Below are positions 2,482-7,485 of a stretch of DNA of 64,000 bases, in pieces (position 1 is the stretch's first letter; the number at the start of each line of letters is the position of its first letter). The translations under genes and the position numbers were made by a program. This stretch comes from Escherichia coli (GTDB lineage Bacteria; Pseudomonadota; Gammaproteobacteria; Enterobacterales; Enterobacteriaceae), in NCBI RefSeq assembly GCF_001677475.2, contig NZ_CP015229.1, one strand, 5' to 3'. A model generated the notes under the pieces. The model ran no database searches and was not told the DNA's origin. It was given only the letters and a program-made list of their open reading frames with translations.

Positions 2482-3930
2482 ATGAGCGCCATAGATTCCC
2501 AACTTCCCTCATCTTCAGGGCAAGATCGCCCAACTGATGAGGTTGACCGCATATTATCACCAGGAAAGCTGATCATACTCGGTCTGCAACACGTCCTTGT
2601 CATGTACGCAGGTGCAGTCGCTGTTCCTCTTATGATTGGTGACCGACTGGGCCTCTCAAAAGAAGCTATTGCGATGCTCATTAGCTCGGATCTCTTTTGC
2701 TGCGGGATCGTCACATTATTGCAATGTATCGGTATCGGCCGCTTTATGGGGATCCGCCTGCCGGTGATTATGTCGGTGACCTTCGCCGCTGTAACACCAA
2801 TGATAGCCATTGGGATGAACCCGGATATCGGCCTGCTGGGGATATTCGGTGCCACTATCGCCGCGGGTTTTATCACCACATTATTAGCGCCACTTATCGG
2901 TCGCTTGATGCCTTTATTCCCGCCACTGGTTACCGGTGTGGTTATTACTTCTATCGGACTTAGCATCATTCAGGTGGGTATTGACTGGGCCGCAGGAGGT
3001 AAAGGGAATCCGCAATATGGTAATCCTGTTTATTTAGGTATCTCCTTTGCTGTCTTAATTTTTATCTTGCTCATTACTCGCTATGCGAAAGGATTTATGT
3101 CCAACGTCGCCGTATTACTGGGGATTGTATTTGGCTTTTTACTTTCGTGGATGATGAATGAAGTCAATTTATCCGGGCTACATGATGCTTCATGGTTTGC
3201 GATTGTCACGCCGATGTCATTTGGTATGCCGATTTTCGATCCCGTTTCCATTCTGACCATGACTGCCGTGTTAATCATCGTGTTTATCGAGTCGATGGGG
3301 ATGTTCCTGGCACTGGGTGAAATAGTCGGTCGTAAACTCTCTTCACACGATATTATTCGCGGGTTGCGTGTCGATGGCGTAGGGACAATGATAGGCGGAA
3401 CGTTTAACAGCTTCCCCCACACGTCATTTTCTCAAAACGTTGGCCTGGTTAGCGTGACGCGCGTTCATAGCCGCTGGGTGTGTATTTCTTCGGGAATTAT
3501 ATTAATCCTGTTTGGCATGGTGCCAAAAATGGCGGTGCTGGTCGCCTCCATTCCGCAATTTGTGCTGGGCGGTGCTGGGCTGGTGATGTTCGGCATGGTA
3601 CTGGCGACAGGGATTCGAATTCTGTCGCGCTGTAACTACACCACCAACCGTTACAACCTCTATATTGTGGCGATCAGTCTCGGCGTTGGCATGACTCCGA
3701 CGCTCTCTCACGATTTCTTTTCTAAGTTACCGGCCGTACTGCAACCGTTGCTGCATAGCGGCATTATGCTCGCAACCCTTAGCGCCGTTGTGCTGAACGT
3801 CTTCTTTAATGGCTATCAGCATCATGCTGATCTGGTGAAGGAATCCGTCTCTGATAAAGATTTAAAAGTCAGGACAGTACGTATGTGGCTTCTGATGCGC
3901 AAGCTGAAGAAAAATGAGCATGGAGAATAA
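2482..3930 (+). CDS. uacT: NCS2-family uric acid/xanthine permease, 482 aa
   Basis: ORF 2353..3930; start chosen at ATG 2482 with AGGAG 9 nt upstream; polytopic membrane protein; position between ygfT and idi. Confidence 0.85.
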   Translation: MSAIDSQLPSSSGQDRPTDEVDRILSPGKLIILGLQHVLVMYAGAVAVPLMIGDRLGLSKEAIAMLISSDLFCCGIVTLLQCIGIGRFMGIRLPVIMSVTFAAVTPMIAIGMNPDIGLLGIFGATIAAGFITTLLAPLIGRLMPLFPPLVTGVVITSIGLSIIQVGIDWAAGGKGNPQYGNPVYLGISFAVLIFILLITRYAKGFMSNVAVLLGIVFGFLLSWMMNEVNLSGLHDASWFAIVTPMSFGMPIFDPVSILTMTAVLIIVFIESMGMFLALGEIVGRKLSSHDIIRGLRVDGVGTMIGGTFNSFPHTSFSQNVGLVSVTRVHSRWVCISSGIILILFGMVPKMAVLVASIPQFVLGGAGLVMFGMVLATGIRILSRCNYTTNRYNLYIVAISLGVGMTPTLSHDFFSKLPAVLQPLLHSGIMLATLSAVVLNVFFNGYQHHADLVKESVSDKDLKVRTVRMWLLMRKLKKNEHGE

Positions 3931-3931
3931 T

Positions 3932-4057
3932 ATGAATCTTTTAATGCGCGCTATATTCAGTCTGTTGTTGCTTTTTACTCTCTCTATTCCTGTCATTTCT
4001 GACTGTGTTGCAATGGCCATTGAAAGTCGCTTCAAATATATGATGCTGCTTTTTTAA
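3932..4057 (+). CDS. candidate small hydrophobic protein, 41 aa (MNLLMRAIFSLLLLFTLSIPVISDCVAMAIESRFKYMMLLF)
   Basis: ATG 2 nt after the uacT stop with GGAG 6 nt upstream; single predicted TM helix; too short for the ORF track; not validated. Confidence 0.25.
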   Translation: MNLLMRAIFSLLLLFTLSIPVISDCVAMAIESRFKYMMLLF

Positions 4058-4178
4058 ATGGTTTTACCTGTCGACATCCGCTCAAAACGGGCGGTTGTCG
4101 ATAAACGCTCACTTGGTTAATCATTTCACTCTTCAATTATCTATAATGATGAGTGATCAGAATTACATGTGAGAAATT

Positions 4179-4727
4179 ATGCAAACGGAACACGTCATTT
4201 TATTGAATGCACAGGGAGTTCCCACGGGTACGCTGGAAAAGTATGCCGCACACACGGCAGACACTCTCTTACATCTCGCGTTCTCCAGTTGGCTGTTTAA
4301 TGCCAAAGGACAATTATTAGTTACCCGCCGCGCTCTGAGCAAAAAAGCATGGCCTGGCGTGTGGACTAACTCGGTTTGTGGGCACCCACAACTGGGAGAA
4401 AGCAACGAAGACGCGGTGATCCGCCGTTGCCGTTATGAGCTTGGCGTGGAAATTACGCCTCCTGAATCTATCTATCCTGACTTTCGCTATCGCGCCACCG
4501 ATCCGAATGGCATTGTGGAAAATGAAGTGTGTCCGGTATTTGCCGCACGCACGACCAGTGCATTACAGATCAACGATGATGAAGTGATGGATTATCAATG
4601 GTGTGATTTAGCAGATGTATTACACGGTATTGATGCCACACCGTGGGCGTTCAGTCCGTGGATGGTGATGCAGGCAGCCAATAGTGAAGCAAGAAAATTG
4701 TTGTCTGCTTTCGCGCAGCACAATTAA
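4179..4727 (+). CDS. idi: isopentenyl-diphosphate delta-isomerase, 182 aa
   Basis: ORF 4179..4727; Nudix-type IPP isomerase sequence; convergent with lysS. Confidence 0.9.
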
Positions 4728-6296: not shown

Positions 6297-7395
6297 TCAT
6301 AACCCTGCTTTCAAACTTGCTTCGATAAATTGATCCAGGCTGCCGTCCAGCACGGCCTGCGTGTTACGGGTTTCTACCCCGGTACGCAGATCTTTAATGC
6401 GGGAGTCATCAAGGACATAAGAACGAATCTGGCTGCCCCAGCCGATGTCGGATTTGTTATCTTCCATCGCCTGCTTCTCGGCATTTTTCTTCTGCATCTC
6501 CAGTTCATAAAGCTTCGCTTTCATCTGCTTCATGGCCTGGTCTTTGTTCTTGTGCTGGGAACGGTCGTTCTGGCACTGGGTCACGATCCCAGTTGGGATG
6601 TGAGTAATACGCACCGCAGATTCGGTACGGTTAACGTGCTGACCGCCCGCGCCGGACGCGCGATAAACGTCAATGCGCAGATCCGCCGGGTTGATTTCGA
6701 TATCAATATCATCATCAACTTCCGGGTAAACAAACGCAGAGCTGAACGACGTGTGGCGACGACCGCCGGAGTCAAACGGGCTCTTACGCACCAGGCGGTG
6801 AACGCCAGTTTCTGTACGCAGCCAGCCGTAAGCGTAATCGCCGGAGATTTTGATCGTCACGGATTTAATACCCGCCACTTCACCTTCCGACTCTTCGATG
6901 ATTTCAGTTTTGAAACCACGCGATTCTGCCCAGCGCAGATACATACGCTCAAGCATGCTCGCCCAGTCCTGTGCTTCCGTACCGCCAGACCCCGCCTGAA
7001 TATCGAGGTAGCAGTCGGCGCTGTCATATTCGCCAGAGAACATACGGCGGAACTCAAGCTGCGCCAGTTTTTCTTCCAGGGCGTCGAGTTCAGCAACGGC
7101 TTCGTTAAAGGTTTCTTCGTCGTCAGCTTCTACAGCCAGTTCCAGCAGACCAGAAACATCTTCCAGCCCCTGTTTCATTTGGTCGAGGGTGTCGACAACG
7201 GCTTCGAGGGAGGAACGCTCTTTACCCAGCGCCTGTGCGCGTTCGGGTTCGTTCCAGACATCCGGCTGTTCCAGCTCGGCGTTTACTTCTTCCAGACGCT
7301 CTTTCTTGGCGTCGTAGTCAAAGATACCCCCTAAGAACGTCGGAGCGTTCCGTGAGGTCCTGAATGCGATTATTTACCGGATTAATTTCAAACAT
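6297..7395 (-). CDS. prfB: peptide chain release factor 2, made by programmed +1 frameshift (365 aa)
   Basis: Frame 0 is ATG 7395..7393 through Leu25 (7324..7322) then in-frame TGA (7320..7318); the +1 frame continues 7319..6297 and matches ORF 6297..7178. Site reads CTT AGG GGG TAT CTT TGA C with the internal SD AGGGGG. Confidence 0.95.
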
Positions 7396-7485
7396 GGTCT
7401 GATTTCTTTTATTGAGCTAGTCAAAATGCGGTGATAAGAGCGGGATTGTACCCAATCCACGCTCTTTTTTATAGAGAAGATGACG

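What the first reader, a model, noticed from the sequence alone, without database searches (positions are those of the whole stretch)
3932..4057. Unannotated 41-codon hydrophobic ORF coupled to the uacT stop
Two nucleotides after the uacT stop an ATG with GGAG 6 nt upstream opens a 41-codon frame encoding MNLLMRAIFSLLLLFTLSIPVISDCVAMAIESRFKYMMLLF, with one predicted TM helix. Its placement and RBS fit a translationally coupled small membrane protein. Such peptides are often transporter accessory factors and are usually missed by ORF callers.
Basis: seen in the sequence. Interest (0 to 1): 0.4.

Follow-up and report, generated by a model that had tools for sequence, protein, structure and literature searches.

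The report
Known small membrane protein gene yqfG
The 41-codon frame right after the urate transporter gene uacT is real and protein-coding, but it is the already named and studied E. coli small membrane protein gene yqfG, so the finding is correct in substance and not new.

Summary
uacT ends with TAA at 3928-3930. One base later, ATG 3932 opens a 41-codon frame (3932-4057), with GGAG six bases upstream. The peptide is exactly as quoted.

It is not unannotated. It is yqfG ("protein YqfG"), 100% identical to RefSeq WP_001050745.1 and 40/41 identical to the K-12 allele. It is full-length in 5359 of 5426 complete E. coli genomes. [quoted passage not shown] Its physiological role is unknown.

My comparative test supports a coding gene:
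- dN/dS is 0.03-0.39.
- Within Escherichia, 19 of 25 variable sites fall at third codon positions.
- The frame is intact in E. albertii, cryptic Escherichia clades, three Citrobacter species, an unidentified enterobacterium and Kluyvera.
- It always lies directly downstream of uacT, even where idi is absent.

The one-base stop-start spacing is kept everywhere except Kluyvera. This fits translational coupling but does not prove it.

The idea that YqfG is a UacT accessory factor rests on this synteny alone and remains untested. Plasmid-borne ygfU alone already raises urate uptake, so YqfG is unlikely to be an obligatory subunit.

Verdict: already known, low interest.

The parts
2482..3930 (+). 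uacT (ygfU), urate/proton symporter, 482 aa. It is the upstream cistron, and its last codons carry the yqfG Shine-Dalgarno sequence.
   Evidence: RefSeq annotation of the identical strain EC931. ORF list. Xan_ur_permease Pfam hit on the orthologues.
3922..3925 (+). GGAG Shine-Dalgarno element for yqfG, 6 nt before the ATG, inside uacT codons Gly-Glu.
   Evidence: Direct reading. Other taxa keep a purine-rich element here: AGGA in Citrobacter, GAGGA in L092, weaker GGTG in E. albertii and the cryptic clades.
3932..4057 (+). yqfG, 41-aa small inner-membrane protein. It has the n-region Arg6, a hydrophobic helix at about residues 7-23 with invariant Pro20, and a C-terminal tail with invariant Ser32-Arg33 and near-invariant Phe34; every full-length family member ends in Phe.
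   Evidence: 100% identical to WP_001050745.1 'protein YqfG'. dN/dS 0.03-0.39 and third-position bias. Family alignment. AF2 predicts a single helix over residues 3-40. RseP cleavage and membrane integration come from the literature.
4069..4103 (+). Conserved stem-loop 11 nt after the yqfG stop. It is the probable 3'-end or terminator hairpin of the uacT-yqfG transcript and has no U-tract.
   Evidence: RNA MFE -22.9 kcal/mol (z -4.7) on the + strand versus -16.1 (z -2.1) on the - strand. 11 consensus pairs, 6 of them with compensatory double changes across 10 taxa. Not called by the terminator scan.
4032..4124 (-). Antisense small ORF, the yqfH locus. It is 30 aa in this strain and is annotated 'hypothetical protein'. 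It overlaps the last 26 nt of yqfG.
   Evidence: RefSeq annotation. K-12 YqfH is 23 aa. The difference comes from a 1-nt indel in a T-run. ORF length varies from 17 to 61 aa across Escherichia.
4095..4124 (+). idi promoter TTGTCG-18-AATCAT. Its -35 hexamer lies in the 3' arm of the hairpin. idi therefore has its own promoter and is not part of the uacT-yqfG unit.
   Evidence: Promoter listed for the yqfG>idi spacer in PMC3946193. Located by direct reading.

Best explanation
The ORF is yqfG, a known and conserved gene for a 41-residue single-pass inner-membrane protein.

Shown here:
- It is identical to RefSeq YqfG.
- Its reading frame is under purifying selection.
- It is always the gene immediately downstream of uacT.
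- In Escherichia and Citrobacter the ATG lies one base after the uacT stop, with a purine-rich SD inside the last uacT codons.
- A conserved hairpin follows the gene, and idi has its own promoter.

Shown by others, for the K-12 allele (L3F difference):
- N-terminally tagged YqfG is integrally membrane-associated. Its topology is predicted as type II (N-in/C-out).
- It is cleaved within the membrane by the S2P protease RseP, in vivo at chromosomal RseP levels and in vitro.

Inferred:
- uacT and yqfG form a bicistronic unit.
- Ribosomes terminating at the uacT stop reinitiate at the yqfG ATG, so YqfG is made in proportion to UacT.
- The peptide inserts like an uncleaved signal anchor, and RseP sets its lifetime.
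- Its physiological role is unknown. The most likely role (about 40%) is as a non-essential modulator or stabiliser of UacT, as with other small-protein/transporter pairs.
For: Identity and annotation: 5359 of 5426 complete genomes; 'protein YqfG' in 39 of 40 sampled rows; listed as a previously known sORF at NC_000913.3:3032817-3032942.

Coding constraint:
- dN/dS is 0.03 against E. albertii, 0.12-0.14 against cryptic clades, and 0.22-0.39 against Citrobacter and L092. Fisher p ranges from 6e-5 to 7e-3.
- Variable sites by codon position are 4/2/19 within Escherichia, p = 1.6e-5.
- The length is exactly 41 codons in all Escherichia and Citrobacter homologues.
- Natural in-frame indel alleles exist in the helix.

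Linkage to uacT:
- Every examined homologue lies just after a 482-aa Xan_ur_permease.
- This includes Kluyvera and L092, where idi is absent.

Transcript end and separate idi promoter.

Membrane integration, predicted type II topology and RseP cleavage: PMC4597795 and PMC10470546.
Against: Coupling is not demonstrated:
- The junction RNA is no more structured than shuffled sequence, so nothing forces dependence on uacT translation.
- E. coli has a good independent SD.
- In Kluyvera the homologue lies 66 nt downstream of uacT, behind a hairpin and with its own AGGA.

A UacT-related function has no direct support:
- Several enterobacterial uacT loci lack yqfG: C. freundii, Serratia oryzae, Pluralibacter, Morganella, Hafnia and Edwardsiella.
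- ygfU alone on a plasmid raises urate uptake.

Other limits:
- The primary papers on native expression (Hemm 2008 and 2010, Fontaine 2011) could not be read here.
- All RseP data use tagged, plasmid-expressed YqfG.
Confidence: 0.9

Rival explanations
1. YqfG is a real small membrane protein, but its function is unrelated to UacT. It might act on another partner, or as a decoy or competitor substrate within the RseP/envelope quality-control system. On this view its position after uacT is just operon hitch-hiking that supplies transcription.
For: The only experimentally established interaction is with RseP. UacT orthologues of similar divergence exist without yqfG. UacT works when overexpressed alone.
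Against: The adjacency to uacT survives changes in the downstream neighbourhood (idi, rhaSR-like genes, or other genes) across Escherichia, Citrobacter, L092 and Kluyvera. No homologue was found in any other context.
Confidence: 0.3
2. YqfG is a pre-peptide. Residues 1-23 act as a cleavable Sec-type signal peptide. Signal peptidase releases a 16-18-residue periplasmic peptide (DCVAMAIESRFKYMMLLF), and RseP merely clears the leftover signal peptide.
For: The layout is n-region (Arg6), h-region, then invariant Pro20. A -3/-1 small-residue site follows it in all 19 family members: V-I-S|D, A-I-S|E, and V-Q-A|G in Kluyvera. The best-conserved motif (ESRF, terminal Phe) lies in the would-be mature part. 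RseP is a known signal-peptide peptidase, and YqfG was chosen as a substrate because it resembles signal peptides.
Against: The -3/-1 rule is loose, and many positions satisfy it. AF2 models one continuous helix. HA-MBP-YqfG accumulates at roughly full size in the absence of RseP, although a 2-kDa loss would be hard to see. No cleavage data exist.
Confidence: 0.1
3. The act of translating the frame matters, not the peptide. Ribosomes reading through to 11 nt before the hairpin would protect the uacT 3' region from Rho or RNases, or would influence the overlapping antisense yqfH and idi promoter region.
For: The stop codon lies 11 nt from a conserved hairpin. An antisense ORF and the idi promoter overlap this region.
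Against: Amino-acid-level constraint (dN/dS well below 1), invariant Arg6/Pro20/Ser32/Arg33, and a conserved 41-residue length would not be expected if only ribosome transit mattered. In Kluyvera the gene is separate from uacT and still conserved.
Confidence: 0.04
4. YqfG is a type I toxin-like hydrophobic peptide (Hok/Ibs/Ldr style), controlled by antisense transcription from the yqfH side.
For: It is small and hydrophobic. It groups with HokB and HokE as a class I RseP substrate. An antisense ORF or transcript overlaps its 3' end in this strain.
Against: It has no dedicated promoter or leader and is fused to the end of a transporter gene. It is single-copy and nearly universal in E. coli. 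The passages read from the RseP studies mention no toxicity for YqfG constructs. The antisense ORF is poorly conserved and absent in Citrobacter.
Confidence: 0.03

Closest known systems
YqfG of E. coli K-12 (gene yqfG, NC_000913.3:3032817-3032942). Cited as a small membrane protein from Hemm et al. 2008 and used as an RseP model substrate.
   Same: Same locus (uacT-yqfG-yqfH-idi), same 41-aa length, and 40 of 41 residues identical. The window allele is itself RefSeq WP_001050745.1 'protein YqfG'.
   Different: Only Leu3 here versus Phe3 in K-12. In this strain the antisense yqfH ORF is frameshifted to 30 aa and overlaps the end of yqfG.
Small proteins that bind and modulate transporters in E. 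coli: AcrZ-AcrB, KdpF-KdpABC, MgtS-MgtA/PitA, MntS-MntP, SgrT-PtsG, CydX-CydAB (own knowledge of the field).
   Same: It is a peptide under 50 aa with a single helix, encoded next to and in the same orientation as a membrane transporter gene. The linkage is conserved across genera.
   Different: No binding, stabilisation or activity effect on UacT has been shown. UacT functions when expressed alone. Many uacT loci lack the peptide. This is an analogy only, not membership.
Remnant signal peptides and other small membrane proteins degraded by RseP (YkgR, HokB, HokE, Blr, YshB).
   Same: It has a signal-peptide-like n/h/c layout and a very short periplasmic tail. RseP cleavage was demonstrated in all four assays, placing it in class I.
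   Different: It is an independently translated gene product, not a by-product of secretion. It is not known to be toxic or to be processed by signal peptidase.

Membership tests
YqfG (E. coli small membrane protein) | Sequence identity to the reference protein | tested here: met
   100% identical to WP_001050745.1 'protein YqfG', and 40/41 identical to the K-12 allele WP_001010156.1.
YqfG (E. coli small membrane protein) | Locus: immediately downstream of uacT and upstream of idi, on the same strand | tested here: met
   uacT 2482-3930, yqfG 3932-4057, idi 4179-4727. The order matches the RefSeq records.
YqfG (E. coli small membrane protein) | Match to a curated family model (HMM) | tested here: inconclusive
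   No NCBIfam or Pfam model exists for YqfG. Only sub-threshold chance hits were found. Membership therefore rests on identity and synteny.
YqfG (E. coli small membrane protein) | Protein is made from the native locus and is membrane-integral | not testable with these tools
   The literature reports membrane integration of tagged YqfG and lists it as a known sORF. The original tagging papers are not held.
RseP (S2P) substrates | Single type II (N-in/C-out) transmembrane segment with a short periplasmic part, and RseP-dependent cleavage | not testable with these tools
   The sequence fits: Arg6, a hydrophobic segment at 7-23, and an 18-aa tail. Cleavage is shown experimentally for the K-12 allele. 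The window allele differs only at residue 3.
Translationally coupled gene pair | Stop and start overlap or lie within a few nucleotides, with the SD inside the upstream gene | tested here: met
   TAA-T-ATG, with GGAG in the last uacT codons. The one-base gap is conserved in Escherichia, Citrobacter and L092.
Translationally coupled gene pair | Downstream start masked by RNA structure that upstream translation opens | tested here: not met
   Junction folds are no more stable than shuffles: z = +1.9 and -0.03 for E. coli, -1.0 for Citrobacter, +1.4 for E. albertii.
Translationally coupled gene pair | Downstream translation depends on upstream translation | not testable with these tools
   This needs a uacT premature-stop reporter experiment. 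The uncoupled arrangement in Kluyvera shows that coupling is not essential to the family.
Small-protein transporter modulators (AcrZ/KdpF/MgtS type) | Physical association with the transporter and an effect on its activity or stability | not testable with these tools
   Conserved gene adjacency is the only support. ygfU alone raises urate uptake.
Bacterial lipoprotein / cleavable secretory pre-peptide | Lipobox Cys, or a conserved signal peptidase I site after the h-region | tested here: inconclusive
   The lipobox is rejected: Cys25 is Gly or Ser in Citrobacter and Gly in Kluyvera. A -3/-1 site after Pro20 is present in all members, but the rule is permissive.

The most novel reading that the evidence does not exclude
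YqfG may not be a resident membrane protein. It may instead be a uacT-linked pre-peptide. On this reading its first 23 residues are a cleavable signal peptide, later cleared by RseP. The conserved 16-18-residue C-terminal part (invariant Ser-Arg, near-invariant Phe34, every full-length member ending in Phe) would be released at the periplasmic face. There it could modulate UacT or a PDZ-type envelope protease. A milder version is more likely (about 0.35): the intact peptide is a dedicated, non-essential regulator or stabiliser of the urate transporter.
Probability: 0.1. Interest if true: 0.5.

Novelty: already known. Interest (0 to 1): 0.1.

Why it matters
As a discovery it does not matter, because yqfG is named, annotated and experimentally handled. 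The residual value is modest. YqfG has no known physiological function. The comparative data here show purifying selection, a conserved Pro20/Ser-Arg-Phe signature, and strict linkage to uacT in four enterobacterial genus-level lineages regardless of downstream genes. This gives a concrete, testable hypothesis that it acts with the urate transporter. That is relevant to small-protein biology, and marginally to engineered urate-degrading E. coli strains that overexpress ygfU without it.

Tried and rejected
- NCBIfam and Pfam scans of YqfG, its Citrobacter and Kluyvera homologues, and YqfH found no family model, only sub-threshold noise.
- An Rfam scan of 3800-4300 gave only a 19-bit chance hit against a 100-bit threshold.
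- The consensus terminator and promoter scan found no canonical terminator after yqfG.
- Folding of the uacT/yqfG junction showed no structure that would enforce coupling.
- AlphaFold2 on the 19-sequence family alignment gave one long helix and nothing more. No fold search was run, because a single helix is uninformative. A fused UacT-YqfG model was not attempted, because the tool returns no inter-residue error or contact information.
- Hemm 2008, Hemm 2010, Fontaine 2011 and the EcoSal small-proteome review are not held.
- Supplements of two initiation-profiling papers are not held.
- A search for 'b4684' returned only unrelated papers.
- The lipoprotein idea was rejected because Cys25 is not conserved.
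- The type I toxin idea was rejected on gene context and distribution.
- The 'Vibrio parahaemolyticus' partial YqfG (P0042, a 216-bp contig) was treated as probable contamination.
- The taxon of locus L092 was not identified.

Full report
**Observation**

The window around the finding reads ...CAT GGA GAA TAA T ATG AAT CTT... .
- uacT stops with TAA at 3928-3930.
- After a single T, ATG 3932 opens 41 codons ending with TAA at 4055-4057.
- GGAG (3922-3925) lies 6 nt upstream of the ATG.
- Two more in-frame ATGs (3914, 3920) lie within the end of uacT.
- An open frame of this length has a chance probability of about 0.14 at the local base composition of 36% G+C. The ORF alone is therefore not evidence of a gene.

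**Identity**

A megablast of 3850-4180 against 5,426 complete E. coli genomes matched 5,383 of them.
- The features under the match are 'uacT', 'yqfG: protein YqfG', 'protein YqfH' (or 'hypothetical protein') and 'idi'.
- Strain EC931 is 100% identical over the queried stretch and annotates the CDS at exactly these coordinates as yqfG, WP_001050745.1.
- A K-12-like strain (identical to the K-12 reference yqfG sequence) carries WP_001010156.1, which differs only by Phe3 for Leu3.
- With the ORF alone as query, 5,359 of 5,426 genomes hold it full-length at 95% identity or more. 39 of 40 rows spread over the ranking show the yqfG annotation.
- A Ribo-seq paper lists yqfG (NC_000913.3:3032817-3032942) among 'previously known sORFs'.

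The word 'unannotated' in the finding is therefore wrong.

**What is known**

Akiyama et al. 2015 describe YqfG as a small membrane protein of unknown function.
- They cite Hemm et al. 2008, and they predict type II (N-in/C-out) topology with TMHMM.
- HA-MBP-YqfG is integrally membrane-associated.
- It is cleaved by wild-type but not by E23Q RseP, and helix-destabilising substitutions between Ile8 and Phe15 modulate cleavage (PMC4597795).

Yokoyama et al. 2023 place YqfG in class I of RseP substrates. It was cleaved in all four assays: plasmid RseP, chromosomal RseP, the 3xFLAG form, and purified enzyme in vitro (PMC10470546). Both papers chose it because it resembles a remnant signal peptide. 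I found no paper in the held library that addresses its physiological role.

I fetched uacT loci from one genome per species and searched downstream of uacT. I also ran single-sequence and profile protein searches and looked up contexts.

Intact homologues were found in:
- E. albertii and cryptic Escherichia clades;
- Citrobacter sp. R56, C. enshiensis and C. amalonaticus, all 41 aa at 51-56% identity;
- an unidentified enterobacterium (L092/L093, 59%);
- Kluyvera (38 aa, 29-31%).

Every one lies directly after a 482-aa Xan_ur_permease that is 81-99% identical to UacT. In Escherichia, Citrobacter and L092 the ATG is one base after the uacT stop.

In Kluyvera the gene is 66 nt downstream, behind a strong hairpin and with its own AGGA. 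idi follows only in Escherichia and Citrobacter. L092 has AraC-family genes downstream, and Kluyvera has unrelated genes. The peptide gene therefore travels with uacT, not with idi.

It is absent after uacT in C. freundii M-21, Serratia oryzae, Pluralibacter, Morganella, Hafnia and Edwardsiella.

**Coding constraint**

| Comparison (E. coli window allele against) | dN/dS (Nei-Gojobori) |
|---|---|
| E. albertii (7 synonymous, 1 non-synonymous change) | 0.03 |
| Cryptic Escherichia clades | 0.12-0.14 |
| Citrobacter and L092 | 0.22-0.39 |

- One-sided Fisher p ranges from 6e-5 to 7e-3.
- Variable sites by codon position are 4/2/19 within Escherichia (binomial p = 1.6e-5) and 22/10/35 over ten taxa.
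- Nearly all other frames carry stops.
- Natural alleles with +2, +4, -3 and -4 residue in-frame indels occur in the hydrophobic helix.
- Invariant residues are Arg6, Leu14, Pro20, Ser32 and Arg33. Phe34 is near-invariant, and every full-length family member in the alignment ends in Phe.
- yqfG evolves much faster than uacT, whose dN/dS is about 0.02, but it is clearly constrained as a protein.

**Anatomy and mechanism**

The hydrophobic core is residues 7-23. AF2 predicts one helix over residues 3-40, confident to about residue 30.

The junction RNA is not structured beyond shuffled controls. Any coupling would therefore be termination-reinitiation by proximity, not unmasking of a hidden start. 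E. albertii and the cryptic clades have a weaker GGTG in place of GGAG, which would make them more dependent on reinitiation.

Eleven nucleotides after the stop lies a stem-loop (4069-4103).
- It is markedly more stable on the + strand (-22.9 kcal/mol, z -4.7) than on the - strand.
- Six of its 11 consensus pairs show compensatory double changes across taxa.
- It lacks a U-tract and is not called as a terminator.
- The idi promoter reported by Shimada et al. (TTGTCG-18-AATCAT) starts in its 3' arm.

I infer a uacT-yqfG bicistronic transcript that ends at or is protected by this hairpin, with idi transcribed separately.

**Function**

The accessory-factor idea is supported only by conserved adjacency. 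Against an obligatory role, plasmid-borne ygfU alone increases whole-cell urate consumption in E. coli Nissle (PMC9067508), and several uacT orthologues have no yqfG. I put a UacT-related modulatory role at about 40%.

A more speculative reading also remains open. All family members have a -3/-1 small-residue site just after the invariant Pro20, which is compatible with signal-peptidase cleavage and release of the conserved C-terminal 16-18-mer. The rule is permissive and there are no data, so I give this about 10%.

**Verdict**

Novelty: already known. Interest: low.

Noticed in passing
window 4069-4103 (+): A stem-loop 11 nt after the yqfG stop is conserved across Escherichia, Citrobacter and L092, with 6 of 11 pairs showing compensatory double changes. 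It is much more stable as + strand RNA and has no U-tract, so the terminator scan misses it. It is probably the 3' end of the uacT-yqfG transcript.
   Followed up: partly
window 4032-4124 (-): The antisense small ORF yqfH is 23 aa in K-12, where VanOrsdel 2018 confirmed it by tagging. In this strain it is 30 aa because of a 1-nt deletion in a T-run (window about 4062-4065), and it overlaps the last 26 nt of yqfG. Across Escherichia the ORF is 17, 23, 30 or 61 aa, and it is absent in Citrobacter. It lies antisense to the conserved hairpin, so its sequence seems shaped by the RNA structure rather than by protein-level selection.
   Followed up: partly
window 4050-4057 (+): The yqfG stop sits in a T6-A3 homopolymer context (CTTTTTTAAATGG). 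Database entries of 56-66 aa (e.g. P0001, P0005, P0014) are read-through forms consistent with length changes in this run. These could be real variants or sequencing errors.
   Followed up: no
window 3914-3931 (+): Two in-frame ATGs (3914, 3920) upstream of the annotated start would give 47- or 45-aa forms. Citrobacter and L092 also have an in-frame ATG 9-12 nt upstream. The Kluyvera homologue starts at the position equivalent to residue 3, which favours the short form.
   Followed up: partly
L004 4453-4760 (Citrobacter freundii M-21); L006 4447-4632 (Kluyvera); L092 689-1966: The neighbourhood is mosaic. In C. freundii, uacT is followed by a terminator and then lysS directly, with both yqfG and idi missing. 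Kluyvera and L092 keep the yqfG-like gene without idi. idi therefore looks like a separate insertion between yqfG and lysS in the Escherichia/Citrobacter lineage.
   Followed up: partly
proteins P0018, P0024, P0039, P0040 (E. coli alleles of yqfG): Natural in-frame insertions (+2, +4 aa) and deletions (-3, -4 aa) occur within or just after the hydrophobic helix. Helix length is therefore tolerant while the frame is kept.
   Followed up: no
window 6297-7400 (-): prfB with its well-known programmed +1 frameshift lies in the window. It is annotated as such in RefSeq, and the two ORF pieces are visible in the ORF list. This is ordinary.
   Followed up: no
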